Source: Pseudomonas phage WP1. Taken from it: a stretch of 64,000 bases of DNA. The position numbers and the translations under genes were made by a program. The DNA lies in the sequence record PP596839.1. The stretch is one strand, 5' to 3'. Below, in pieces: positions 2,111 to 63,322 of this stretch. Within the stretch, counting starts at the first letter, position 1, and the number at the start of each line of letters is the position of its first letter. The notes under the pieces are model-generated. The model did not search any database. It saw only the letters and a list, made by a program, of their open reading frames with translations, and was not told where the DNA came from.

Positions 2111-2440
2111 CTAAATGGGGTTGGCGCGGTCTTCCTCGGTCGGTTCCGGCGTCGGGGACGGGAAATCGCCCTCTTTACCGTCCTGTACATGGCCATTGGC
2201 TTCGGCCGCAGCAGCGACGGTGGCGGTCTGAGCCTCGGCTTCCGATGCGTAGAAGCCTGCCAGTCCGCGACCGACCCTGGTTCTGCCAGGCTCGTCAACG
2301 AACGTGATTTCGGCCAGAACGTTCAGTTCCTTGATGGCAGGTAGACGGCTAGAGTCCTTGACAGTGGGATCGCGAACCACCTGGAGAAGTTCGATGAAGC
2401 GCCGTCTTTGGATTCCACAGATCGGACGTTCTGGTCGCAT
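2111..2440 (-). CDS. hypothetical protein (109 aa)
   Basis: ATG overlaps stop of upstream minus-strand gene (TGAATG); protein-like sequence. Confidence 0.5.
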   Translation of the reverse strand: MRPERPICGIQRRRFIELLQVVRDPTVKDSSRLPAIKELNVLAEITFVDEPGRTRVGRGLAGFYASEAEAQTATVAAAAEANGHVQDGKEGDFPSPTPEPTEEDRANPI

Positions 2441-2650
2441 TCAGCTGGCTTTGAACTGCTTGCGATAGTACGGGTTGGACTCCATCGCGAAGATGCGAGC
2501 CTGGGCCGGCCCGTCCATTGTGCTCTTCGCCCCAGGTCGCCCGGAAGACCCGCCAGGAGCTGTAGCCTTGAACGCGCAGGTCGATGTACAGGTCGAAACG
2601 CTTCTGGTTGATCGCCGCGAACTGCGGATCAGCGAATTCGTGGCGTGACT
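2441..2650 (-). CDS. hypothetical protein, frame-disrupted (…HEFADPQFAAINQKRFDLYIDLRVQGYSSW… then …MDGPAQARIFAMESNPYYRKQFKAS*)
   Basis: two adjacent protein-like segments in different frames on minus strand; no ATG in first segment. Confidence 0.3.
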   Translation of the reverse strand, partial: SHATNSLIRSSRRSTRSVSTCTSTCAFKATAPGGSSGRPGAKSTMDGPAQARIFAMESNPYYRKQFKAS

Positions 2651-2789
2651 AAATCGTCGGGTCTGTAGGATCTGGCGGTCATTTGTTGCTGCGTCCCTGG
2701 AGTTCGATTCTTGGACCGTCGCGGTTGCCTGGCTGTTGATGGGACCTAGTGCTTTGCCGCGACATCTGAGTATGGCGCGATTGTACCAT

Positions 2790-2990
2790 GGGGCCAGGGA
2801 GCATGCTCGATGGGCTGCTGGTGGGTGGCCTGTAGGTATGGGTGGGTTGGATGGTGAATGAGTGTTAGGTGGTGTTATAGGATGTTATATGGGCGGCCTG
2901 CTGGCGGGTGAGGATCGGATTGGTGGGTGGCGGATGAGCGTTTGGATAAAATGTTAAATCGAATGTTAGGAATGTGTCCAGGTGAGCGAT
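2790..2990. repeat. G/T-rich degenerate direct-repeat tract (TGGTGGGTGGC x2 about 95 bp apart, GTTAGG x3, AATGTTA x2); candidate iterons/origin
   Basis: strong strand compositional asymmetry, no ORF, repeated short motifs, lies beside primase-helicase genes. Confidence 0.4.
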
Positions 2991-3590
2991 TCTGCCTTGT
3001 GGCTTAATTCCTGGTTCCGCTCGTCGAGTTTTGGTCCCTGCCGCTTAGTCCGCCGTGGTGTTGCCGCTGCCCATGGTTTGGAAGGACGGAAGTTTCCGGC
3101 GACCCTGCCGCGAGTTGAGCGGAATCGGAAACTTGCCGGGTAATGTACAAGCTTAGCGCCGCGAGGCTTTCAAAGACTAAACTATTCCAAATTCCCAAAT
3201 TCCCATTAATTTTATTAATTTTAAAGATAGGTAACGTCCGTGATAGATTTTTTCTATTAGGATTGTGCAGTCGATTTTCGCTGTAGAATAGTTTTAACCC
3301 ATGCTCGGAAAACCGGGAATTCGGGAAAACGGCCGCAGGCCCGCGCGGCAGTAGGCCTCCCATCTTCCCAGTCAGAATCGCAGTCCAGGAATTTGCGGCT
3401 ATTTCCACACAAAAATCCACCTCAAGCCCACAATTTCTCAGCATTTCACGGAGGATCCAGTCACCATCCATGCCATACCAACGCCGAAAATCTATCAGCT
3501 TCCCATAATACGCCATCGCCACGCCACCCTAATTCCCACATGGCTTTCAAGCCTCACCCGTTCACAAGCTAAATTAATGTTCTCCGCACC

Positions 3591-3615
3591 AGAAAAAGAC
3601 CGCCCGAAGGCGGCC
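3591..3615 (-). terminator. minus-strand rho-independent terminator (GGCCGCC TTCG GGCGGTC TTTTTCT) after gene 3642..5365
   Basis: 7-bp GC stem with tetraloop followed by T-run on minus strand, 25 nt after stop. Confidence 0.45.
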
Positions 3616-3641
3616 TAATCCAGTCCATCTGCATCAGTACA

Positions 3642-7258: not shown

Positions 7259-8431
7259 TACACAGGCTCCTTGCTAGTCGCGGCGTTGATGTACGCATCC
7301 AGCAGCTTCTGCGTATCAGCTCGGGCGACGCCATTGTACAGTAGCGCCATTACGGCATAATGCATCGCTTCCGTCTCGCGAACCGGGATCAGGGCATAAC
7401 CCTCTGGCGCGCCGTACCGAGACTTGGCGACCGCCAGCGCTTCGTTGAGCCGGAATCCTTCGCGTACCCAGTCCGTCAGCTTCCCTTCCAGCTCAGCGAC
7501 CCTGGCCAGAGCAGCATCGCGCTCCAGGACGATCTTCTGGGCGGCCTTGATGCTGGCATTGTCGCCGATGAACTAACAGCTTGCCGTCGCCGTCGCCTAC
7601 GCCCATGGTACATTCGTAGGTCGGCCGCTCCGCCTCTGCCTGCGCCGGTGAGGGTTGCGCCAGGGCATCGCGTTCCGCCTTATAACGGCAATAAGCATGG
7701 CCGTATTCATCGCCGACCACGCCGTCACAATAGCTCGCGGCCAGTTCGCTCCCGCGCTTTTCTGATTCGCCGAGTTTTTTCTCCAGCTCGATCGACCCTG
7801 GCCAGAGCAGCATCGCGCTCTTTGCGCATTCCATCCCAGGCCGCGAGGTGCTGCCGGGCCTGCTCTGCCAAGTAATCGCGATCAGCCCGCAGCTCCCCGA
7901 CGATGCTGTCGCACTCGGCGACCGTTGTAAGAGCTTCGGGGTCTTTCAATCCATGGTCCTGCTCATAGACCATTCCCGACTCCCCCGCTGCGATACCCAG
8001 CCACTGCCGGCCTCTTCACAGTCTGCCTTCGCAAGGTCTGGTCGCTTCAGCAGCTCGTTAACGCAGGCGTCGCGCTCTTCCTTGCTGCTGCACCCAGGCG
8101 GGTTGTTCTGCCCGTCTTCATGGCCCCATTCGTAAGCTTCGCTCAGCCTCTTCTTCTCTGCATTCTCGGCCTGCGACGCTTCCGGTTCGCTCCAGCGCTT
8201 TTCCGATTCTTCAAGTTCCTTTTCAAGCCGGATGCTGGTTTCAGTAACTTCGGCGAGCCGATTCACATCGGTCTTTTCGAACTTGGGAGCGCATTGAGGG
8301 CAGTCCTCAAGGTGTCGCTGCGGCTCGTCGCTGATCCACACCTGGCCGCTACCATTACAAATGGTGCATTTTCCATCGAAGTAAAGTTTGACCGATGCCA
8401 GTGCAGGCGGCGCACTTCCGAAGAATCTCAT
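7258..8431 (-). CDS. coiled-coil / zinc-ribbon protein(s) (CTICNGSGQ…CPQC), frame-disrupted; carries 27-bp internal direct repeat
   Basis: N-terminal Cys4 ribbon, long Glu/Arg/Ala-rich helical region, C-terminal …LLDAYINAATSKEPV*; TAATG overlap with next gene. Confidence 0.4.
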
Positions 8432-11378: not shown

Positions 11379-12272
11379 ATGGAACAGAAGGACCAGAACG
11401 AACAGACCCAAGGCGAAGAGCTGACCAAGGAACAGGCCGCTGCCCTGCGCAAGGCCGAGAAGGCCGCTGAGCGCCAACGTAAAGAGCGCGAGCGCGCCGA
11501 GAAGGCCGAAGCCAAGGCCAAGGAAGCCGAGCAGAAGAAAGCCGAGCGCGAAGAGAAGCGCAAGGCCGAGCGCGAGAAGAAGGAAGCCGAGCGCGCCGAG
11601 AAGGCGAAGGAAAAGGCCGCCGCCAAGGAAGCCGAGCGCGCTGAAAAGGCCAAGGCGAAGGAAGCCGAGCAGGCCGAGAAGGCGAAGGCCAAAGAAGCCG
11701 AGCGCGAGCAGAAGAAGGCCGAGAAGGAAGCCGAGCGCGCCAAGAAGGCCGAAGAGAAGAAGGCCGCGCAGGAAGCCCAGAAAGTCGCTCGCGAAGAAGA
11801 GCGCAAGCGCCTGGCCGAAGAGAAGAAGGCAGAGCGCGAAGCCGAGAAGAAGCGTCGCAAGGAAGAGCAGGAAGAGCGCCGCGCGAAGGCCGAAGCCCGC
11901 CGCGAAGACCTGAAGTCCAGTGGTTCGCGCCGTCCGCGTGCCACCCACTTCATCCCGACCGGCGACGGCCACGGTACTCCGCAGGCCTTCTCGACTCGCG
12001 GCAGGGTGTCTGCTTACATCAACGAGCACTGCACCGTTGGTGAGCCGGTCGAAATCGAATCCTTCGGCGAGCAGGTGGCCCACCTGCTGTACGGCACCTC
12101 GGTTCGCAGCTACCTGAGCAGGCTGGAAATAATGGGCTGGGTCGATCTGGTTGCCATCGCTTCGAAGGAAGACGAAGCTGGCCAGGGCGATGACGAGAAG
12201 GCCGGTGACGAAGGCCAGGAGCACGACGGTGATGATCAGGGCGCCGACGGTTCCGATGGTGAAGAAGAGTAA
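11379..12272 (+). CDS. Lys/Ala/Glu-rich repeat protein with globular C-terminal domain and acidic tail
   Basis: 297-aa uninterrupted ORF; residues 15-185 almost exclusively K/A/E/R in degenerate KAEAE repeats; ends DDQGADGSDGEEE; both antisense ORFs are shadows. Confidence 0.65.
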   Translation: MEQKDQNEQTQGEELTKEQAAALRKAEKAAERQRKERERAEKAEAKAKEAEQKKAEREEKRKAEREKKEAERAEKAKEKAAAKEAERAEKAKAKEAEQAEKAKAKEAEREQKKAEKEAERAKKAEEKKAAQEAQKVAREEERKRLAEEKKAEREAEKKRRKEEQEERRAKAEARREDLKSSGSRRPRATHFIPTGDGHGTPQAFSTRGRVSAYINEHCTVGEPVEIESFGEQVAHLLYGTSVRSYLSRLEIMGWVDLVAIASKEDEAGQGDDEKAGDEGQEHDGDDQGADGSDGEEE

Positions 12273-13390: not shown

Positions 13391-13442
13391 GCTTTACTTC
13401 TTAGCCAGGTGAGAGTAGTATTCCCTCATCGAAACGCGAAAC
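13391..13442 (+). promoter_or_regulatory. promoter TGCTTTACTTC-17-TAGTAT plus conserved leader CATCGAAACGCGAAAC (copy A)
   Basis: -35 TTTACT 13393-13398, -10 TAGTAT 13416-13421, leader 13427-13442, ATG at 13468. Confidence 0.5.
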
Positions 13443-13467
13443 CCTTCAACCAAAAGGAATCGACAAA

Positions 13468-16830: not shown

Positions 16831-17387
16831 ATGAGATTCGCCGTATGGGATACTGAGACCACAGGACTCCCGTTCCACCAGAGGGTAAGTCTGCGGAAGC
16901 AGCCAGAATCACTGAATTCGCCGGAGTCATCACCGATGGCGAGACGATTCTGGATGAAGTCGAGTTCACCTGCAACCCTGGGATTGTGATCGAAGAAATC
17001 ATTACAAAGATCACAGGCCTGAAGAATGAAGACTTAATCAAACACCCATCGTTCCTCGATCAACGCCAGAAAGTTCGCGATTTCTTTTCGAAGGCCGACG
17101 CAGGTATTGCCCACAACCTTCCGTTCGATAAATTCATGCTTACCTGCGATCTGGCTCGCGGAAAGCTCGGCCTGGAAGAAGTCAACTTCCCATCGCTCGA
17201 TATCTGTACTGTAGAAGAGTCGGCGCCATTGTTCGGCCACCGCATGCGGCTGCAGGCATCCTGCATGAGCATTACTGCGGACCTTATGTCCAGAAGCACC
17301 GGGCATTGGACGACGTGCGGCTGCTCCATCGAAGCCTGCAAGCACATGGGAGTGTATCGGGCGTATCAAGCAATGGAGGCCGCATAA
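16831..17387 (+). CDS. DnaQ-like 3'-5' proofreading exonuclease (Exo I DTETTG, Exo II AHNLPFD, Exo III HRALDDV); two frame breaks
   Basis: motifs found in order across three frames; GGGAACAGGAC RBS region. Confidence 0.65.
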
Positions 17388-20050
17388 TGTCTTTTCCTCA
17401 ACTACGCGTTCGTTCCGGCTACTCACATGGCGCCGCATGGCGGCAGGTTCCCGGAAATCATTGAGCGTGCCAGAGAAATCGAATCGCCCTTTGTCGCCAT
17501 CGTCGATGATGGGACCTGGGGCCACGTCCGCTGGGAGCAGGCAGCTACCAGAGCAGGAATTGCCTCGCGGATTCGGCATGGAAATCCCGATCAAATGCGC
17601 CGATGATGGCGAAAAAGAACTGAAGCTGAAGGCCTGGGCGCTAGCCAAAGATACCAGAAGATTCTATCGCCTTACTTCGAAGACTGTCCAGAATCAAGGC
17701 TTGTCGCCCAAAGAATTCCAGGACGCTGACGGCATCATCAAGTTCGCCGGCGAGGCCTATGCCTACTTGGACTTGGCCGGGATCGACTACACTGACATCA
17801 ATCCTGCGTCGATGGTAGCCGCGCACGGCGCTATGGAGACGGCCAGGGCGTTCGGCAGGCCTGTGGTGATTACCTCTTACAACGACATGCCGTCCATCGG
17901 CCATGTAGATTTTGCTTCGGCCTGGAAGGTTCGGGAATCGGTCGGACTTCGCCACATCGCGACTGAGGAAGAGTTGTGGACCCGTCTTCGCCATGTCATG
18001 ACCCGCGAAGAGTTCGACGAGGCCATGGCCAGTACGCAATGCGGTGGCTGAGCAGCTGGCCGATGTAAAACTGGCAAAAGCGCCAATGATCCACCTAGAT
18101 GGTGATATCGTCGCCCTGGCTCGCGAGGGCCAAGCCTACCGTCTCAGTCGCGGCCACATCAAGGAATGGACCCAGGTTTACGAAGATCGGTTCCAGGAAG
18201 AAATCAAGCAAATTCAGCTGAAAGACTTCGACAGCTACTTCCTGGTGGTAGCCGATCTGGTTGCGTTCGCCAAGAAGCACATGTTGGTCGGCCCGGCTCG
18301 CGGCTCTTCGGCCGGCTCTTTGGCCTGCTACCTGCTGGGTATTACCGAGGCTGATCCGCTCCCGCATCGCCTTCTCTTCCAGCGCTTTATCGACATTTCC
18401 CGTTCCGATCTTCCCGATATAGATATCGACTTCGCCGATACCCATCGCTATCTAGTGTTCGAATATCTCCAGCAGAAATACGGCACTTGGAACGTGGTGA
18501 AGCTCGGGAACATCAACGCGCTGAAGGCCGCGTCGGTTATCGCTCACGTCGGGAAGCGCTTCGGCATTCCATTCCATGATACCGACAACATCAAAAACTC
18601 GATCACTGAATATACTTCGGCGGACGAACGACATGGAAAAGGATTGGAGGACACTTTCGAAAAAACTCAACCCGGCCGCGACTTCCGAGAAAAGTATGAG
18701 ATTGCGTCCGCCTGCATGGGCGACCTCGAAATTCACCCATCCCACTCCGGCGTCCACGCGGCAGGAATCCTGGCGTGCAACGATGAAGTAACCGATTTCT
18801 GTACGGTTACTCCTGAAGGCATCGCGCAGCTCGACAGCCTGATTCGGAATATTTGAATCTTCTCAAGATTGACGCGCTAGGCCTTCGAACGCTGGGCGTA
18901 ATCCAAGATGCGAATTGCGTGACGGCGCAGGAGCTGCATGACTTACCGCTGAACGACAAGGCGGTTTTGGACGTTCTCAATGAAGACAGATGTCAGGCAT
19001 CTTCCAGTTCGAAGGTCAGGCCGTCCGCTCGGTCGCCAGTGCGATCAACATCACCGCGTTCGAAAACATCGACCACATCACTGGCGCTCGCTCGTCCGGG
19101 TCCGTCTGTCTTCGGGCATGGCCACGAAATACATCGAGCGCGTAGCCGGTCGCGAGCCTGTGACCTATACCATTCCGCAGGTCGAGCAGTATCTTGTCGG
19201 GGACGTATGGTGTGTTCCTGTACCAGAACAGGTCATGTCAGTTGTTAAGGACATTGGTCAGTTCGACTGGGAACAAACGTCGGCGATCCGGAAAGCGATG
19301 TCGGCGCGGAAGGGCGAAGAGTTCTTCAACAAGCGCCGAGAATTGTTCATCGAGGGCGCCAGGACCATAGGCGTCGCCCCGGAAGACGCTCACCGAGTTT
19401 GGCAGGAAATGGTGACATTCGGAGCCTGGGGATTCAGCCGCTCCCACTCGGTAAGCTATGCCGTGGTGACGTACTGGACTTGCTACATGAAGCGGTATCA
19501 TCGCCTGGAATACGCGGCCGCGTGCCTTCGGGCGGCGAAGGACGACCAGCAGACTGTGTCTATCCTTCGCGAATTGGCCAAAGAAGGCGTAGAATATACG
19601 GCCCTGGACCCGGAGCATTCCGAACTCAACTGGGTGGTAGCGGACGGACGCCTGATCGGCGGCATAATGAACGCCAAGGGCTTCGGCCCGGCGAAGGCCG
19701 AGCGGTTCCTGCGTCTTCGCGAGGAAGTCAGGGCCGCGAGGATTGCCCTGGCAAATTGCCCGATTTCGGCGCAGGATGTAGAGGATAAGGCCGATGACGT
19801 TGCCGCGCTGGAAGCCCAGATTCTTCCTGCGAAAGTCAGTCGAGACAAAGAACTGGAGAAGCTACTCAAAGCTGATCTAAAGGAGTTGAAGGCTGAGCTG
19901 AAGGAGTTGAAGGCGCAATATAAAGAGCTGGCCGGCTCCCACCTTAAAACACTTCAGGATTGGGAGAAAGTTGCCGCGAGTTTGTCAAATTCCGAGGTTC
20001 AGTTCGCGGATCTGAACGAATCTCATGCGCTCTGGGGCCATGCGCCATGA
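17387..20050 (+). CDS. dnaE: DnaE-type (Pol III alpha-like) DNA polymerase, about 890 aa, at least 6 frame changes
   Basis: PHP start MSFPQLRVRSGYS, GSSAGSLACYLLGITEADPL, PDIDIDF, HSGVHAAGIL, GIFQFEG, FGAWGFSRSHSVSYAVVTYWTCYMKRYH all in canonical order; TAATG coupling to exonuclease gene. Confidence 0.75.
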
Positions 20051-20498
20051 CAATCCGAGGCTGGTTGGAGTAACTTCCGGAAATCCAATTCAGAACATTC
20101 GTGATATCCGCGATGGCGACGATGGGCTGGTTATCGTCAAGCTGGTGAAGAAAGTTCTGTCGGATGAGAATGAACCGATCCGCCAGAAGAAGAGGGCTGA
20201 CCAAGGGAAGAATCCAGTGTACAAAGGCCAGTCGCAGTTCCTCGACTTGATGTGCGCTGATGACTCGGTTGACCAGCCGATTCGTTTCAGGATTCGCCCT
20301 GAAAAATATCTTCAGTACGGGAAGAATATCGCCGAAGGTACGCCGACCGGCTCTTGGTTCCTCATCAAAGGATGGAAGCTCAGCGGAATCGATATGTTCA
20401 TCGTGAAGGCCGTCAAGCGGATATTGACCGAACGCGAGAAGGCGAAGCTGGCAGCGCAAGCAGAGAAAGATTCCGAAGAGGGGAATGGTGATGAATGA
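20040..20498 (+). CDS. hypothetical protein, possibly detached C-terminal OB-fold region of the polymerase
   Basis: in-frame ATG at 20040 overlapping dnaE end; beta-rich composition. Confidence 0.35.
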   Translation: MRHDNPRLVGVTSGNPIQNIRDIRDGDDGLVIVKLVKKVLSDENEPIRQKKRADQGKNPVYKGQSQFLDLMCADDSVDQPIRFRIRPEKYLQYGKNIAEGTPTGSWFLIKGWKLSGIDMFIVKAVKRILTEREKAKLAAQAEKDSEEGNGDE

Positions 20499-46256: not shown

Positions 46257-47417
46257 TCAGGCATCGGTTAGATGCCGAGGTAGCGCACCACAGCCCAGTG
46301 GGCGTTTGCAGGTAGCGCCGGCAGTGCCGTTGGAGAAATCCTCCACAGTGCGACTTCGCCCGCTTTTCGACGCCAGGGGTGATGAACTTGCTCTGAACCA
46401 GCTGGCTGAACACGGTGCCGCCATTGGTGCTGCCATTGACGGACGCGTCCATCTCTTCGACGAAGAGGACCAGGGCGTCTTCCGGCGTTTGGCCCTGCAT
46501 CTGGACGCCGGACAGCTCCGGAGCCGACATGATCCGCATCTTCGGATAGGTCTGTTCGATCCAGTCAGGAACCGAAATGCCGTAAGGCGTGGTCACCGAC
46601 AGGTAGTTCCATCCTGCTGGTGGCCAGGGCCATTGGCGATCTTCTCGGCCTTCGGGTCGATCTGGTCTTGGCTCTGGATGCGCAGCGGGCGGACGGCCTC
46701 ACGGATATCCCCGATGATACCCGCCCAGTCGGCAGTGGCCCAGCCCTGGCTCGGCGGAGTCTGGAACGGCGGCAGGTTGGGTCATTCAGGAAACCATGGT
46801 GCGGTTGCCCAGGCCGCTCTGCCAGCCGTAAAAACCGATGGCGTTGCGGAAGATTTCCAGGCCGATGGCCGCCTGCTGACGCTTGGTCTCTGCGCTGTTC
46901 AGTCGAATGGCCGAAGCGCGGCCCTCTTCCAGGGTACCGATGAGCAGGCCCAGCTCATCATGAACGATGGTGCGGCGCTCGAAGTTGGCGTTCCAGCTGG
47001 TCAGCGGGATGTTGGTGTGGTCACCGTATTCCATCGCAGTGCCGGCCGGCTCAGCGATACCCTGAACGATTTCCTGGTCTTCCCAGGAGCCAGCGGTGTC
47101 GATGCCGATGATCTCATCGATTTTCCGCGCGGCGGTCATTACCTTCATCAACCCAGGCAGCCAGGCCGAAGGAACTGGATGGGGGTCGGGATGGACGGCG
47201 TGGTCACCGGGGCGGTGAAGTTGCTGTCCATGGCCGAGCCGGAACGGAATGCGCCGGCCTTCGCCAGGGCCTTGATCTGGTCCTGGACGACGGCGTGATC
47301 GAATACCAGGCCGATGCGACCCAGGGCGGCCATGGCTTCGTGGGTGACGTTCTTCAGGTCGAATGGCTTTGCGTGACGGCCTGCGAGGCGCGAATGGGTC
47401 TTACTGATATGGCTCAT
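46257..47417 (-). CDS. major capsid protein (about 385 aa), 3 frame breaks
   Basis: AAGGAGG RBS then ATG; segments [29 protein letters not shown]…, …[35 protein letters not shown]…, …[27 protein letters not shown]…; position after scaffold. Confidence 0.6.
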
Positions 47418-48070: not shown

Positions 48071-48926
48071 TTACTCCCCCTTCAGGTAACTGTCCAGCTC
48101 GGCGCATTGCGGAGCAGGAACTGGCCGAATCCTGGGCTTTCGATTGACGGCTGGCCGCGCCATCAGCAGCTTCGACGCCTTTCAGGTACATTGTCGAGCG
48201 CCAGGGCTTCCTGGCCCTTCTCACAGCTGATTGCCAGCTTCTTCACGCCGTAAACAGCGACTTTAGCCGAGTCCATGGCTCGGTGATCGAACGCACCAGC
48301 CATTGGAACTAAGACGCTTGTAGAGGCGATCTTTAGCAGCAGTGTCGCGATAGAGACCATGAATTGCAGGATCTTGCGCGTTCTTCTGTGCCATTTCAGG
48401 AAGTTCCTCGCTGTTATCCTTGCCCTCACCACCATTGTCGCTGGCGGTTTGCGCGCCGCTGAGGATGCTCTGTTCTTCCAGGCCCTCGACGACATCTTGA
48501 CCTTTGTCATGCTCTTCGTCCGCCTCTTCGGCTACCGTGCCCTCCAGTCGAGCCAGGACGGCCTTGACCTGGGAGATCAGTTCGGCGACTTCGCCTTCAC
48601 CGGACATTTCGGATGCGGCACCTTCTTGATGCTCCGGATCGACGGCGGCCATGGCCGGATCGACAGCGGACGGCGCTTCTTCGTGCTCTTCGTCGTCTTC
48701 CTGAGCGCCTTCCAGGTCGGATGCTCGGTCATGTGCTCGCTGTCGGTCGGTTCGGCCGGAGCAGCTGCGCCTTCCTGGTGCTCCGGCTCCTGCGCCTCTT
48801 CGCCCAGGAACTTCTGGACAGGTCGCAGGAGCTTCGGCCAGGGCGCGCAGCTCTTCGACCGCCGAATCAGGCAGCTTGTCCTGCGCGCTGGACAGGAGTC
48901 TTCTGCTTGGCTTTCTTGAGACCCAT
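48071..48926 (-). CDS. acidic scaffold protein
   Basis: GAGGG RBS; long D/E-rich helical region …AELISQVKAVLARLEGTVAEEADEEHDKGQD…; sits directly upstream of decoration and capsid genes. Confidence 0.5.
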
Positions 48927-49019
48927 TTCATTACCCTCATCGGATGGTCTGAAATCAGAACTGAGATGGTCAGGGACCGGCCATCCAGTACTCTGGCCCC
49001 CGGCATAGTCACCCTCTTT

Positions 49020-49440
49020 TACCAGGGCGATGCGGTTGCCGCGCATCTTGTCCTGGACGACTTCATGGCTGTTCCATTCCAGGTGCCGGGTTGCTCAGTG
49101 TAGTGGCAGCGATAGCCTAGGGACAGGTCTTCCTTGCCCCTTTCCAGCCGATGCTGGACTGTCGCGGGAATAGATACGGATATCGCCGCGAGCCCATTGG
49201 AGCTTCGTAGTAGGCGTTGGCTGTGATGATGCCTTCCACACCTTTGTCTTCGGGAGCCATGCCGTCGTCATCGCCGTCGAATCCCGACAGCATTTCGTGC
49301 TCGTCGATCAGCGGGAGATTCTTCAGGGATTCGATATACTCAGGATCATGAACAGCAGGCTCCGGACGATACACGTTGACAGTCCGCATTGGATCGCCCG
49401 GAAGACCGAGTTGACCGGCAGGTAGATTGGAAAATGCCAT
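49020..49440 (-). CDS. hypothetical head protein, first gene after AT-rich regulatory region
   Basis: 107-aa [54 protein letters not shown]… with frame change near 3' end. Confidence 0.4.
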
Positions 49441-50050
49441 TAGCTGATTGGACAGCCCTCGATGGTCATTTATCCATTTTCGTCAGTTTTTCTTTTCGAC
49501 TTTGCCATCGTTAATTCGAAGAGTCGTGGACTATGGCTGTATTATATACGCAGGACATCCAGGGTAAATAAGCGGAACAGTAATTAGATGTAGCCGCGAC
49601 TGTTAATTTACATTAGAATCTGTATTGTGATCTAATTACCGGATTTCCTCAGCCGCGAAAACTGGTAACTTGGTTTCGGAAATTTGACGGGATTTGTCTA
49701 AGCCTACTGCCGCAGGGCTTTCAGTCTTTAAACTAATCCAGGTTACCAGCTTACCAGTTAAAAATTGAATTTCAGTACGTATAGAGCATGGTCGATTCAC
49801 GTTATATTATAACGTTACTTATATATGAATTCTATTAGAACGTTATTCCTAATTTCCCATGCTATATACTTTTGCAGGATGCGGCGAAATTGGAAATTAG
49901 GAATTTAGCATGTTAAAGCCTTGCGGCAGTAGGCTTTCCAGGTAACCGCTATTTCCCAGGAAACGGTAATTTGCGGCTATCCGGACCCGAATTTTTGTTC
50001 AGGATCCGGATTTTCGCGGCATCATCAGCCGAAAGTAGTCAGGATCGAGA
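49441..50050. promoter_or_regulatory. AT-rich, ORF-free structured region with nested inverted repeats inside the head gene cluster (late promoter / packaging or replication signal / small inserted element)
   Basis: outer IR GCCTACTGCCGC (49702-49713) vs GCGGCAGTAGGC (49923-49934); inner IR ATTCCTAATTTCC (49845-49857) vs GGAAATTAGGAAT (49892-49904); palindrome CGTTATATTATAACG (49800-49814). Confidence 0.5.
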
Positions 50051-54113: not shown

Positions 54114-55230
54114 AATCTGCTCATCTACCAGTAGGGTGACGAAATGGCAAGCATCAGGTATGGATCGCCATCGCTTTCCTTTGTACTGGCGATGGCTGTG
54201 TCCAGATGCCGGATCATGCCAGTAGGTCGGTTCGACAGGCAGGGCCAGTGCGAAGACGTCATGTGAAGAGCGATTGATAAGATGTGGGAGCGACATCAGC
54301 TGGTTGTTCGGGCCGTTTGTACGCCTTATTTCCTCAGCAGTACAGAAGTTCCCGGCTTTTACAGTCCGCCGCCCCAGCCGCTGATTGGTCTGAACCACTG
54401 CGCTGGGATATTTGGATTCGCGGCGGCAGCATCCCGTCTTATGAGCCGGGAAGGGGTTGGAGCGAATGAAGCCGCGCCGACCGGAAGTGCGGGTCAGTCT
54501 GGAAACTGCCCTGTGGATGTCGACATCCGCTGCGCTGCTCGCGGCGATAATCTCTAGCGCGGTTTTCCCGCCCTCGACGATTCAGTGTCCGGAAGAAAGA
54601 CCGCCTGCGGCCGAGCGTTTCCACCATCCGGAAAATAGTAGGTTCTTTCCTCACACAGAAAGGATAGTGAGTATGAAATATGTAGTGATGAAGATGACGG
54701 TCCGGGGAATGTCTCATTAAGTTCCCGTAATCTTCCCCGACTTAATCAGTCACGTCAGCATGGCCGCGAGTGCGTTGGTGGCCCTCGACGCCGAATGCGA
54801 AGGCTTCAGAAGGCTGGCGATAAAGTTGACATCAGGTGGTGTCGGCAGGCTTTCTGTCTTCCATGGATATTAATGGAAATTGCAACGGCCAGTCGGATTC
54901 GTTGAACGGTTTGAAGTCGAGAGAATCGGTGGATGACGAACTCATTCGCATTATCGACTACACTCATGGTTACGTCGGTTAAGGCTCGCTGCCTTTCCTG
55001 CGACAGGCGAGCTGTCCTGGACGAACGAAAACTGAAGTCGAAGCGCCCACCAGGATTGTAGGTGGTGTGGAGGATCGACATGGCGAATCGTCAGGTAAGT
55101 TACTTGTTACGGTTCGTGCAGGCATTATCCCCATGGGCAGGATCGGTCGGATGCATGCTCGACCGCTCAGGCTGAGCAGTAGTCGTTGAGCTTCCTGGAG
55201 CCTCAGGCCATTTCCCTTTCTGAGGTGAAT

Positions 55231-55577
55231 ATGGCTACTAAGGCCGATTTGGAATTGGAAGTTCAGCAGCTTCGACGAGTAGTCAGTCTCGCGAATTCGA
55301 AATTGAAGAGTTGCAGGGCCGACTGAGGCGCCATTGTGATATTATTCGCCGGGTCCGACTCTATCTTTGGAGCCGTTTGTTGATCCATCGCCGGACCGCC
55401 GAAACCCTGGAAGTCGGCGACAGGATCGCCAGGACCATCGCGACGAAGCGTCACAGGGTCGCTAACGACGTTCTTGGAATCATCCAGGATCTTAATGACT
55501 ACTGCGACAGTGATGCTGAGTACGACTACAACGACGGCGCTGAGCATGGATTCAAGATCAGCAGTGACATTTATTGA
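55231..55577 (+). CDS. small coiled-coil protein, one frame break
   Basis: GAGGTG RBS; MATKADLELEVQQLRRVVS… then …EFEIEELQGRLRRHCDIIRRV…. Confidence 0.4.
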
Positions 55578-57765: not shown

Positions 57766-57818
57766 TGCTTTACTTCCACTCTGGATGAAGGCAGGATAGC
57801 TCCATCGAAACGCGAAAC
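57766..57818 (+). promoter_or_regulatory. promoter TGCTTTACTTC… plus conserved leader CATCGAAACGCGAAAC (copy B; -10 poorly conserved)
   Basis: -35 TTTACT 57769-57774; leader 57803-57818. Confidence 0.4.
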
Positions 57819-57840
57819 CTTCAAGCAAAAGGAACCGACC

Positions 57841-59100: not shown

Positions 59101-59421
59101 ATGGCCTCGGCCCGCGCTATCGATGCGGAATTCGCATTCCGGATGGACGAGTTCATGGCGCGTGTAGCGAAAGAGCACGAAGCGCTCGCCGCTCGCCTGA
59201 ATGCCGAGAATGAAGCGCTCTGGGGCGAAATCCGCGCTGTCGCCGGCCTGAGCGCCATCGACTTCCCGAACATCGCCATGGCGCATGACAATTCCGATGG
59301 GAAGCTCTATGTCATGGACGCCGACGAGTTGGAGCGCGTCCGCCAGTCCTGCCCGTGCCCGGACTGCGCATCCGCTCGCGCAGGAAGAATGCCGTCGCAG
59401 GCCAGTGGAGGGATTCATTAA
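59101..59421 (+). CDS. hypothetical protein (106 aa, CPCPDC motif)
   Basis: clean ORF; TAATG coupling. Confidence 0.45.
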   Translation: MASARAIDAEFAFRMDEFMARVAKEHEALAARLNAENEALWGEIRAVAGLSAIDFPNIAMAHDNSDGKLYVMDADELERVRQSCPCPDCASARAGRMPSQASGGIH

Positions 59422-59639: not shown

Positions 59640-60020
59640 TCGAAAGACACATCGTGGATGCGGAAGTCGTCGAGCGGATTCGTTCTCTTCGCCATGCGAC
59701 TCAGCGTCCTGGACGAAACCCTGCAACGGGCCGTCGACATGGCGATGCTCAGTCACCAGAAATCTCTGCAAGACCTTCGAACCTATGAAGCTCAACCCTG
59801 GGATGCGCTCAACGCCCGTTACGGCCTGTCCGTCGAGAAGACTTATGACCTGCGTTTCGAGGGCGAAGAAGCCGTGCTGGTCGAGGTGCCGCCCGGCGAC
59901 GGACAGGGCGATGACTTCATCGTCGAGTCGGAAACCGAAGCGCTCGCAGCAGGCCAGAAAGACCTGGAAGTCGGCGAGGCCGTTGCGTCGACACTCAGCG
60001 CCAGGAACCGCAACGAGTAA
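59636..60020 (+). CDS. hypothetical acidic protein, one frame break
   Basis: ATGA coupling; ends 7 nt before terminator. Confidence 0.4.
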
Positions 60021-61545: not shown

Positions 61546-61596
61546 CTTTACTTCCATTCTGAATAGCGTCATAATCTCTTCATCGAAACGCGAAAC
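61546..61596 (+). promoter_or_regulatory. promoter CACTTTACTTC-17-CATAAT plus conserved leader CATCGAAACGCGAAAC (copy C)
   Basis: -35 61547-61552, -10 61570-61575, leader 61581-61596, ATG 61621. Confidence 0.5.
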
Positions 61597-61620
61597 ACTC
61601 CAAAACAGAGGAACGCAGAA

Positions 61621-63251: not shown

Positions 63252-63301
63252 TTTACTCGATGAGGTGGCTGAGGTATAGTCACCTCATCGAAACGCGAAA
63301 C
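63252..63301 (+). promoter_or_regulatory. promoter TGCTTTACTCG-17-TATAGT plus conserved leader (copy D) embedded in 10-bp inverted repeat CGATGAGGTG / CACCTCATCG
   Basis: -35 63252-63257, -10 63275-63280, leader 63286-63301, ATG 63323. Confidence 0.5.
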
Positions 63302-63322
63302 GCTCAAAAAGAGGATTGCGAA

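What the first reader, a model, noticed from the sequence alone, without database searches (positions are those of the whole stretch)
3345..3402. About 60-bp element shared between two distant AT-rich regulatory regions
GCGGCAGTAGGC…CCCAG…CCAGGAA…AATTTGCGGCTAT occurs at 3345-3402 and again at 49923-49980 in the same order and orientation. Twelve- and 13-mers are identical and the spacing matches (53 versus 47 nt). A reverse-complement copy of the 12-mer lies at 49702-49713. Both copies sit at the right-hand edge of an AT-rich tract whose left side borders minus-strand genes. One tract precedes the early small genes 2111-2650, the other the late head genes from 49440. AATTCCCA-type repeats also recur at 3190-3215, 3535-3545, 11342 and 49850. 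The pattern suggests a common DNA-binding regulator or promoter-module shared by two leftward transcription units.
Basis: seen in the sequence. Interest (0 to 1): 0.65.

Follow-up and report, generated by a model that had tools for sequence, protein, structure and literature searches.

The report
Duplicated phage DNA-packaging-site module
The shared 58-bp element is real. It is one arm of a roughly 350-bp mirror-symmetric, AT-rich DNA module present twice in this Pseudomonas PB1-like phage: one copy holds the site where genome packaging starts, next to the small terminase gene, and the other sits in front of the head genes and has no known role.

Summary
GCGGCAGTAGGC occurs exactly three times and AATTTGCGGCTAT exactly twice. 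The gap between them is the same 33 nt in both copies.

The element is not a stand-alone 60-bp motif. The window is a Pbunavirus (PB1-like) genome in reverse orientation. The two intergenic regions share a collinear module of about 340-370 nt (profile E about 5e-25). The module is an imperfect palindrome: GCCGC boxes lie only upstream of an AT-rich core and GCGGC boxes only downstream.

Copy 1 (about 3040-3445) lies directly upstream of the small terminase gene. That gene's 14-1 homologue is 99% identical to the solved E217 TerS structure. The core of copy 1 carries the packaging (pac) end at 3274|3273. That position matches the JG024 long-read start cluster at 59,376 and the first base of several deposited genomes.

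Copy 2 (about 49593-50020) precedes the head protease operon.

The same two-module layout, built from different lineage-specific short repeats, occurs in the E. coli phage WFH and the Pantoea phage Kyle. In both, the genome's left end also lies in the core of the module upstream of TerS.

Best reading: a terminase-recognition module that has been duplicated. The role of copy 2 is unknown.

The parts
3390..3402 (-).
   Evidence: Exact copy. Present in PB1/F8/JG024-type genomes. In 14-1-type genomes a different GCCGC box sits at nearly the same distance from the centre (-156 against -149).
3345..3356 (-).
   Evidence: 14-1-type genomes have GCCTTAGTGCCGC here, which matches the downstream arm GCGGCACTAAGC perfectly.
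3205..3295 (-). Module 1 AT-rich core, nearly invariant across Pbunavirus. It contains the packaging (pac) end between 3274 and 3273 (minus strand GCGAAAAT^CGACTGCAC) and the small palindrome ATAGAaaaaaTCTAT (3243-3257).
   Evidence: Mean pairwise identity is 0.89-0.99 in 15 genomes. A 91-nt stretch is 94.5-97.8% identical in every one of those listed records that cover it but do not align further upstream.
3188..3204 (-). Tandem GGGAATTT units, inside the 50 nt upstream of the mapped 14-1 promoter P040. The equivalent transcription start is window 3170 on the minus strand.
   Evidence: Supplementary Table S3 of bioRxiv 10.1101/2023.10.13.562163, mapped through the 14-1 sequence.
3151..3162 (-). 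Module 1, inner downstream box (minus strand GCGGCGCTAAGC). It is the mirror partner of the 12-mer.
   Evidence: Further GCGGC boxes lie at 3107-3111, 3063-3067 and 3040-3044.
2114..2683 (-). Small terminase (TerS) gene, broken by frameshifts in this window
   Evidence: tblastn shows the reading frame alternating between -3 and -1. The 14-1 homologue is 99% identical to PDB 7UXE, 'Small terminase'. The start coordinate is approximate.
3597..3616 (-). Intrinsic terminator of the upstream primase gene; marks the upstream limit of intergenic region 1
   Evidence: Annotated in PB1, LMA2 and DP1.
49968..49980 (-). Module 2, outer upstream box ATAGCCGCAAATT
   Evidence: Present in 12 of the 13 other genomes aligned, as ATAGCCGCAA[A/G]TT; DP1 has ATAGCCTCAAGTT, and one locus is truncated.
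49915..49936 (-). Module 2, inner upstream arm AAAGCCTACTGCCGCAAGGCTT. It contains the 12-mer at 49923-49934.
49745..49880 (-). Module 2 AT-rich core, with a perfect 17-nt palindrome ACGTTATAaTATAACGT (49799-49815) and the TAATAGAA box
   Evidence: GC is 0.39. The GenBank record of phage E215 starts at the position equivalent to 49837.
49700..49721 (-). Module 2, inner downstream arm (mirror copy; the 12-mer lies at 49702-49713)
   Evidence: Further GCGGC boxes lie at 49652-49656 and 49593-49597; further upstream GCCGC boxes lie at 49881-49885 and 50016-50020.
49541..49568 (-). Sigma-70 promoter of the head protease operon, equivalent to 14-1 P014. The equivalent transcription start is window 49534. 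It lies downstream of the palindromic module.
48074..49469 (-). Head maturation protease gene, frameshifted in this window
   Evidence: annotation of homologues

Best explanation
**What it is.** The 58-bp element is the upstream arm of a roughly 350-bp dyad-symmetric nucleoprotein-assembly module of the pac-site type. The arm consists of an outer box TAGCCGCAAATT and an inner box CCTACTGCCGC, 45 bp apart. The full module has this layout:
- two to four GCCGC-containing boxes upstream;
- an intrinsically AT-rich core with a small central palindrome;
- three to four mirror-image GCGGC boxes downstream;
- short lineage-specific repeats (GG[G/T]AATT here) interspersed among the boxes.

**Copy 1** lies directly upstream of the small terminase gene and is the phage's packaging initiation site. 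Terminase cuts concatemeric DNA in the core, between window 3274 and 3273. The cut lies 76 nt after the inner upstream box and 111 nt before the inner downstream box. Headful packaging then runs towards the TerS gene. Copy 1 also carries the sigma-70 promoter of TerS.

**Copy 2** is a paralogue kept in front of the head protease, scaffold and capsid operon. I infer that the same factor binds it, most likely the small terminase ring, possibly with a partner. It appears to be cut rarely or never. Its most likely roles are to couple head-gene expression to terminase, or to serve as a second pac-like site paired with copy 1.

**Shown here or in the literature:** the repeats, the homology, the symmetry, the position of the DNA end, the identity of TerS, and the cross-genus conservation.

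**Inferred:** which protein binds the boxes, and what copy 2 does.
For: **Homology and symmetry**
- A profile built from 15 copies of intergenic region 1 hits region 2 with E=5.5e-25. The reverse search gives E=4.7e-25.
- Each profile also hits the opposite strand of both regions (E=6e-15, 3e-8 and 8e-5).
- The box polarity (GCCGC upstream, GCGGC downstream) holds in both copies and in all three sequence types of copy 1.
- A genome-wide scan for this polarity ranks 49785 first. 3272, the cut site, shares second place with one GC-rich coding position, and 49785 and 3272 have the two most AT-rich cores among the listed peaks.

**Position of the pac end**
- In JG024, 36 of 161 long nanopore reads start at 59,376 +/-5, and a matching restriction fragment was seen (PMC10913387).
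- That base is the C after GCGAAAAT, which corresponds to window 3273.
- The Pa193 record starts and ends exactly there.
- PA11P1, Ab29, PA19 and TH15 start there, and Ab28 and PAP8 end there. PB10, fHoPae01 and vB3530 start at or within about 3 nt of it.
- Essoh 2015 reported reads with a single fixed end and no terminal repeat for Ab27-29.
- 16 of 296 records are split at this site. Only one phage is split in copy 2.

**Link to terminase**
- The downstream gene is TerS (99% identical to PDB 7UXE).
- The core is near-invariant (0.89-0.99) while its upstream flank diverges.

**Other genera**
- WFH and Kyle have TerS proteins 39-41% identical to the 14-1 protein.
- In each, a paralogous module pair sits upstream of TerS and upstream of the protease (E=5e-24 and 2e-30). 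The pairs are palindromic (E=7e-22 and 5e-17) and use different short repeats.
- The deposited left genome end lies in the core of the TerS-proximal module, with the same geometry: -42/+102 in WFH and -82/+127 in Kyle.
Against: - No binding data exist. A review reports that recombinant E217 TerS showed no appreciable DNA binding in vitro (PMC9611059).
- PhageTerm analysis of phage Banzai found no significant terminus peak.
- In copy 1 the flagged element is the least conserved part of the region. 14-1-type phages lack ATAGCCGCAAATT there, so that box cannot be essential for packaging.
- In Xanthomonas phage XcP1 a module-like array follows the primase gene, 3.5 kb from TerS. No second copy precedes its protease gene.
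- The ends of the WFH and Kyle records are taken as deposited. I could not check how they were determined beyond the statement of a 3.7-kb terminal repeat.
- Nothing here shows what copy 2 does.
Confidence: 0.55

Rival explanations
1. Shared late-gene regulatory module. Both modules would be upstream activating or repressing regions bound by one phage-encoded, or phage-modified host, transcription factor. That factor would co-regulate the small terminase gene and the head operon. The pac cut would merely happen to lie in one of them.
For: - Both modules precede co-directional morphogenesis transcription units.
- The 14-1 transcription start P040 (sigma-70) lies inside module 1, exactly at the inner downstream box. 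Its upstream 50 nt are the tandem GGTAATTT units and the AT-rich tract, which resembles an UP element.
- The centre of module 2 contains a consensus TATAAT, and two groups predicted a promoter there.
- 14-1 gp12 is reported to bind the RNA polymerase alpha subunit.
Against: - No start site was mapped at the homologous position of module 2, nor at its central TATAAT. The only start there (P014) lies downstream of the module.
- Boxes extend about 210 nt either side of a dyad centre, far beyond a normal promoter.
- In three genera the physical genome end falls in the core of the TerS-proximal copy. A pure promoter model does not predict this.
- The CTGGG in the element is not conserved.
Confidence: 0.25
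2. Paired replication elements. The modules would be an origin and a second cis-acting replication region, with initiator-binding boxes in inverted orientation flanking an AT-rich unwinding element. The adjacent primase-helicase would bind them, in the manner of phage P4 ori and crr.
For: - Inverted boxes around an AT-rich core are a classic origin layout (general knowledge).
- Copy 1 immediately follows the primase/VirE-like gene in Pbunavirus and in XcP1.
- There are two copies per genome.
Against: - In WFH and Kyle the genes annotated directly upstream of the TerS-proximal module are small hypothetical proteins, not an annotated primase, yet the module stays with TerS.
- The cumulative GC-skew minimum in the window is near 9 kb, at the divergent transcription point, not at either module. 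The Banzai study places skew minima inside the replication gene cluster.
- There is no experimental origin mapping.
Confidence: 0.12
3. The element encodes a structured RNA or forms DNA hairpins: a small RNA, or a stem-loop in the 5' leader.
For: In this window the inner arms can be drawn as AAGCC-N-GGCTT hairpins. The 14-1 transcript from P040 starts at the downstream arm.
Against: - There is no Rfam match apart from one chance-level RsmY hit (14.6 bits against a gathering score of 57).
- Fold energies of the element and its arms are no better than shuffled sequence (z from -0.8 to +1.0).
- The stem is not maintained in 14-1-type copy 1, where AAGCC...AAGCC is a direct repeat, nor in the PB1 copy 2.
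Confidence: 0.03
4. Chance similarity between two AT-rich regions, or a decaying duplication with no function.
For: The overall pairwise identity of the two copies is only about 58-71%.
Against: - Profile E-values are about 1e-25.
- Both copies are retained in 294-296 sequenced Pbunavirus records.
- Two other genera keep the same paired design with different sequences.
Confidence: 0.02

Closest known systems
Bacillus phage SPP1 pac region
   Same: - The packaging initiation region lies at the start of the small terminase gene.
- There are multiple terminase contact points on both sides of the site where the large subunit makes the first cut (as summarised in PMC9611059).
- Packaging is headful from a defined start.
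- The region also carries the promoter of the terminase gene (from memory).
   Different: - Here the flanks are mirror-symmetric arrays of GCCGC boxes extending about 210 bp either side.
- TerS is a decamer, and its gene lies 58 kb from the TerL gene.
- A conserved second copy of the whole module exists elsewhere in the genome. SPP1 has no known counterpart.
Phage P1 pac site (from memory: a 162-bp site with seven TGATC(A/G) hexamers, four on one side and three on the other, with cleavage in the centre and an IHF site)
   Same: Short repeated boxes are split into two sets, 4+3 in copy 2, flanking a central cleavage region in a site a few hundred bp long.
   Different: - The boxes are different, with no GATC or Dam logic.
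- The two sets are in inverted orientation.
- The core is strongly AT-rich.
- No IHF site was identified.
- The module is duplicated.
Phage T4 putative pac sites in genes 16 and 19, and the 'twin-ring pac synapsis' model
   Same: There are two homologous terminase-related sites per genome, one at the small terminase gene and one near the head and tail morphogenesis genes. The model proposes that stacked TerS rings pair two sites before cutting (PMC9958956; PMC9611059). E217 TerS is reported to form higher-order oligomers through its C-terminal helix.
   Different: - The T4 sites are short sequences inside genes, inferred from gene amplification, and T4 has no defined pac end.
- Here both sites are large intergenic palindromic modules, one with a mapped DNA end.
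- Pairing of the two modules has not been tested.
Salmonella phage P22 pac
   Same: A headful packaging signal associated with the small terminase gene.
   Different: P22 pac is a single 22-bp asymmetric sequence inside the gene. It has no flanking arrays, no AT-rich core and no second copy.

Membership tests
Headful (pac-type) packaging initiation site | A preferred, defined DNA end in the virion DNA population at the site | tested here: met
   Indirect evidence for copy 1 only.
- The JG024 long-read start cluster and pac fragment are at 59,376, which corresponds to window 3273.
- Essoh 2015 reported reads with a single fixed end.
- At least 11 deposited genomes start or end at that base or within about 3 nt of it.

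I could not analyse raw reads.
Headful (pac-type) packaging initiation site | Circularly permuted, terminally redundant genome without cohesive ends or exact repeats | not testable with these tools
   Literature only. JG024 and Banzai support permutation. Earlier work claimed fixed ends.
Headful (pac-type) packaging initiation site | Location in or next to the small terminase gene | tested here: met
   The cut lies about 600 nt upstream of the TerS start codon. In WFH it lies 201 nt upstream and in Kyle 356 nt upstream. Copy 2 does not meet this feature.
Headful (pac-type) packaging initiation site | Sequence-specific recognition of the flanking boxes by terminase | not testable with these tools
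   No binding data exist. E217 TerS is reported not to bind DNA appreciably in vitro.
Headful (pac-type) packaging initiation site | The site is required for, and sufficient to direct, packaging | not testable with these tools
   Needs plasmid transduction or mutant-phage experiments.
Sigma-70 promoter / UP-element module | -35 and -10 hexamers at correct spacing within the flagged element | tested here: not met
   The consensus scans found no promoter in 3345-3402 or 49923-49980.
Sigma-70 promoter / UP-element module | A mapped transcription start at or just downstream of the element | tested here: not met
   The 14-1 start-site table lists none inside the element. The nearest starts correspond to window 3170 (175 nt away, within module 1) and 49534 (outside module 2).
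14-1 'other motif' promoters (CTGGG about 5 bp before the start) | A conserved CTGGG with a mapped start about 5 nt downstream | tested here: not met
   CTGGG is present in this window's element. It is replaced in 14-1-type genomes (ACGGA in copy 2, CCGGT in copy 1), and no such start is listed.
Replication origin (initiator boxes plus AT-rich unwinding element) | Strand-compositional (GC-skew) switch at the site | tested here: not met
   The cumulative skew minimum is near 9 kb. There is no inflection at 3.3 kb or 49.8 kb.
Replication origin (initiator boxes plus AT-rich unwinding element) | Conserved linkage to the initiator or primase gene | tested here: inconclusive
   The module is adjacent to the primase gene in Pbunavirus and XcP1. 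In WFH and Kyle the annotated upstream neighbours are small hypothetical proteins; I did not locate the primase gene in those two genomes.
Structured non-coding RNA | Match to a known family, or a stable conserved fold | tested here: not met
   No Rfam hit reaches threshold. Fold z-scores run from -0.8 to +1.0. The stems are not conserved.
Miniature inverted-repeat mobile element | Terminal inverted repeats with target-site duplication and variable insertion sites | tested here: not met
   Inverted arms are present, but both copies sit at fixed orthologous positions in about 296 records. The window holds no further copies.

The most novel reading that the evidence does not exclude
The two modules form a functional pair. 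Small terminase rings bound at the pac module and at its paralogue upstream of the head genes would synapse, either within one genome or between genome units of a concatemer. Synapsis would license the first cut and/or feed back on head-protein synthesis. This would be a natural, sequence-defined instance of the 'twin-ring pac synapsis' mechanism so far argued only for T4. It would be conserved across at least three genera (Pbunavirus, Wifcevirus, Kylevirus).
Probability: 0.12. Interest if true: 0.8.

Novelty: new variant of a known kind. Interest (0 to 1): 0.6.

Why it matters
Pbunaviruses are among the phages most often used against Pseudomonas aeruginosa. Their packaging mode has been disputed, and their pac site has only been pointed to, not described.

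**For packaging biology.** How small terminases recognise DNA is an open problem, and no structure of a TerS bound to its site exists. This analysis supplies a defined substrate for the structurally solved E217 TerS decamer: a roughly 350-bp dyad-symmetric site with conserved box geometry around the cut.

**For the second copy.** The conserved paralogue in front of the head operon, co-evolving with the pac module in three genera, is unexplained. It makes a two-site (synapsis or feedback) model directly testable.

**For practice.** Knowing the pac module matters when rebooting or engineering these genomes, when choosing where to linearise assemblies, and when judging the risk of generalised transduction.

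Tried and rejected
**Explanations tested and rejected**
- *Structured RNA or hairpin.* No Rfam match at gathering or permissive threshold. Folding of the element and its arms is no better than shuffled sequence.
- *Protein-coding.* The 172-aa ORF over region 1 (F8 ORF075, phrog_18478) is not conserved in frame, length or even strand among 15 genomes. It is probably an annotation artefact.
- *tRNA.* None found.
- *Promoter within the element.* None by consensus scan and none in the 14-1 start-site table.
- *Additional copies.* None elsewhere in the window, by mismatch search or by profile search.
- *Origin of replication by GC skew.* No signal at either module.

**Searches that led nowhere**
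- Pbunavirus profiles do not align to the XcP1 regions. The cross-genus comparison therefore rests on architecture, not on alignment.
- IMG/VR gave only 6 and 12 related loci, so I used the GenBank phage collection instead.
- Ceyssens 2009 and Lokareddy 2022 could not be read. I cannot exclude that they mention these motifs.

Full report
**1. What the window is**

Both flagged regions match about 296-298 Pseudomonas aeruginosa PB1-like phage records (genus Pbunavirus). Identity is 70-96% for these regions and about 94-95% for the best whole-region matches over the first 25 kb. The window runs in reverse relative to the usual PB1 and 14-1 orientation, so the genes around both regions lie on the minus strand. 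The sequence is rich in indel errors. No ORF exceeds 356 aa. The DNA polymerase, protease, capsid, sheath and small terminase genes are each broken into several frames. Single-base length differences in this window should therefore not be over-read.

**2. The observation**

- The 12-mer GCGGCAGTAGGC is exact at 3345, 49923 and, inverted, at 49702. Nothing else in the window comes closer than 2 mismatches.
- The 13-mer AATTTGCGGCTAT is exact at 3390 and 49968 and has no other match with up to 2 mismatches.
- The gap between the two boxes is 33 nt in both copies. The sequence in that gap is not conserved.
- The inverted copy extends to a 22-bp inverted repeat with 21 of 22 positions matching.

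**3. The element is part of something larger**

A pairwise alignment shows collinear similarity across most of both intergenic regions. I built profiles from 15 orthologous copies of region 1 and 14 copies of region 2.

- The region 1 profile finds region 2 over about 370 nt (E=5.5e-25).
- The region 2 profile finds region 1 over about 340 nt (E=4.7e-25).
- Each profile also matches the opposite strand of both regions (E=6e-15, 3e-8 and 8e-5).

The unit is therefore an imperfect palindrome.

- Its centre in copy 2 is a perfect 17-nt palindrome, ACGTTATAaTATAACGT (49799-49815).
- Its centre in copy 1 is ATAGAaaaaaTCTAT (3243-3257).
- GCCGC boxes occur only upstream of the centre: -213, -170, -120 and -78 in copy 2; -149 and -99 in copy 1.
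- GCGGC boxes occur only downstream, with one exception, a GCGGC at -86 in copy 1 next to the inner upstream box. The downstream positions are +94, +151 and +210 in copy 2, and +88, +139, +183 and +206 in copy 1.
- A scan of the whole window for this polarity ranks 49785 first. 3272 shares second place with one GC-rich coding position, and 49785 and 3272 have the two most AT-rich cores among the listed peaks.

**4. Genomic context**

*Copy 1*
- It lies between the terminator of a primase gene and a gene whose 14-1 homologue is 99% identical to PDB 7UXE, the E217 small terminase decamer.

*Copy 2*
- It lies between two small ORFs and the head maturation protease, which is followed by the scaffold and major capsid genes.

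*Transcription starts (published for 14-1)*
- P040 (sigma-70) corresponds to window 3170, exactly at the inner downstream box of copy 1. It drives TerS through a leader of about 500 nt.
- P014 corresponds to window 49534, downstream of copy 2.

**5. Copy 1 carries the packaging end**

- Several GenBank records from different deposits start or end inside copy 1 at one nucleotide.
- Pa193 begins CGATTGCAC and ends GCGAAAAT.
- Essoh et al. reported reads with a single fixed end and no terminal repeat for Ab27-29 (PMC4482731).
- Ipoutcha et al. found that 36 of 161 long nanopore reads of JG024 start at 59,376 +/-5, together with a matching restriction fragment. They proposed a pac site there (PMC10913387).
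- JG024 base 59,376 is the C following GCGAAAAT, which corresponds to window 3273.
- 16 of 296 records are split at this site. Only one phage, E215, is split inside copy 2.

The roughly 90-nt core around the cut is almost invariant (mean pairwise identity 0.89-0.99). 14-1-type genomes lack ATAGCCGCAAATT but keep GCCGC boxes at nearly the same distances (-156 and -100). Their inner box (GCCTTAGTGCCGC) matches the downstream arm perfectly. Box position and dyad symmetry are conserved rather than exact sequence.

**6. The design is older than the genus**

The small terminase has homologues of 39-43% identity in other genera.

*E. coli phage WFH (Wifcevirus)*
- The left end of its reported 3.7-kb terminal repeat (PMC6563267) falls in an AT-rich core 201 nt upstream of TerS.
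- GCCGC boxes lie at -214, -95 and -42, and GCGGC boxes at +102, +148 and +176.
- This is the best polarity score in the WFH sequence I examined (records 1-52,999 and 64,500-71,283).
- The region upstream of its protease gene shares 193 nt at 70% identity with that module (E=5e-24), and also aligns in reverse (E=7e-22).

*Pantoea phage Kyle (Kylevirus)*
- The two regions share 260 nt at 70% identity (E=2e-30; reverse E=5e-17).
- The record's first base lies in the core, between GCCGC boxes (-91, -82) and GCGGC boxes (+127, +154).

*Short repeats and co-evolution*
- Each genus uses its own short repeat: GG[G/T]AATT in Pbunavirus, ACGGATGAT in WFH, GGTTATT in Kyle.
- The GCCGC/GCGGC polarity and the cut geometry are the same (-76/+111 in this window).
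- The two modules therefore co-evolve within each lineage, which implies a shared lineage-specific binding factor.

*Xanthomonas phage XcP1*
- It has a module-like array after its primase gene but no second copy upstream of its protease gene.

**7. Interpretation**

The best-supported reading is that the module is a pac-type terminase recognition architecture. Copy 1 is the functional pac site and also holds the TerS promoter. Copy 2 is a conserved paralogue whose function is unknown.

I favour the small terminase as the shared factor for three reasons.
- The module stays with the TerS gene in three of the four genera examined.
- It contains the physical end of the genome.
- TerS diverges enough between genera to account for the lineage-specific repeats.

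This identification is inferred, not shown. Recombinant E217 TerS reportedly does not bind DNA appreciably in vitro.

The rivals are:
- paired replication elements;
- an RNA structure;
- chance.

The last two are effectively excluded.

**8. Comparison with known systems and novelty**

The closest known systems are:
- the SPP1 pac region, with contacts flanking the cut at the TerS gene;
- P1 pac, with split sets of short repeats around a central cut;
- the T4 gene 16 / gene 19 putative pac pair, which underlies the twin-ring synapsis model.

What differs here is the large mirror-symmetric box array, the near-invariant AT-rich core, and a conserved second full copy upstream of the head operon. 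The pac position itself was already proposed in the literature. I did not find its architecture, its duplication or its cross-genus conservation described in the papers I could read.

I file it as a new variant of a known kind, with moderate to good interest.

Noticed in passing
whole window; e.g. 17387-20495, 46271-47417, 48074-49469, 2114-2683: No ORF longer than 356 aa occurs in 64 kb. The DNA polymerase, capsid, sheath, protease and small terminase genes are each split over several reading frames. The sequence looks like an uncorrected, indel-rich assembly rather than a viable genome.
   Followed up: partly
13392-13454, 57768-57830, 61546-61608, 63276-63313 (+ strand): Four copies of CTTTACTTCC...(about 22 nt)...TCATCGAAACGCGAAAC. 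The window copy at 57768 matches the upstream region of the mapped 14-1 sigma-70 promoter P006, and the CTTTACTTCC motif also occurs in P001. All four copies share a conserved start of the transcript, TCGAAACGCGAAAC, of unknown role.
   Followed up: partly
49741-49757 and 49941-49947: Only this window has GGTAACCTGG, GGTAAGCTGG and GGTTACCTGG at positions where all 13 other aligned Pbunaviruses have an AATT-containing unit (GGTAATTTGG, GGTAAATTGG or a close variant). Three repeat units of module 2 have changed in the same way.
   Followed up: no
position equivalent to window 49837 (module 2 core): The GenBank record of phage E215 (MF490241 / NC_042080) starts inside module 2 at the TAATAGAA box, about 14 nt from the position homologous to the pac cut. 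It is the only phage of about 296 records split there. This could be chance or a minor packaging start.
   Followed up: partly
2684-3170 (- strand): The small terminase mRNA has a 5' leader of about 500 nt (14-1 start at 59399, ATG at 59897). The part of it I aligned (3170 down to about 3000) is highly conserved (0.88-0.94), with GCGGCA boxes every 23-50 nt. It could be a regulatory leader or simply the downstream half of the pac site.
   Followed up: no
3004-3522 (- strand): A 172-aa ORF covers the pac region. It is annotated as a hypothetical protein in F8 (ORF075) and other phages, and it has its own PHROG (phrog_18478). It is not conserved in frame, length or strand among 15 genomes, so it is probably a spurious gene call.
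   Followed up: yes
11490-11900: A coding repeat with 33-nt periodicity, rich in Lys, Glu and Ala codons (GAAGCCGAGCGCG...AAGGCC units).
   Followed up: no
7487-7524 and 7782-7820: A 39-nt direct repeat at 95% identity, about 300 nt apart.
   Followed up: no
L036 (XcP1) 54430-55350: The Xanthomonas phage XcP1 region after its primase gene contains a tandem CCCCAGAACAA x4 repeat, in addition to the GCCGC / AT-rich / GCGGC array.
   Followed up: no
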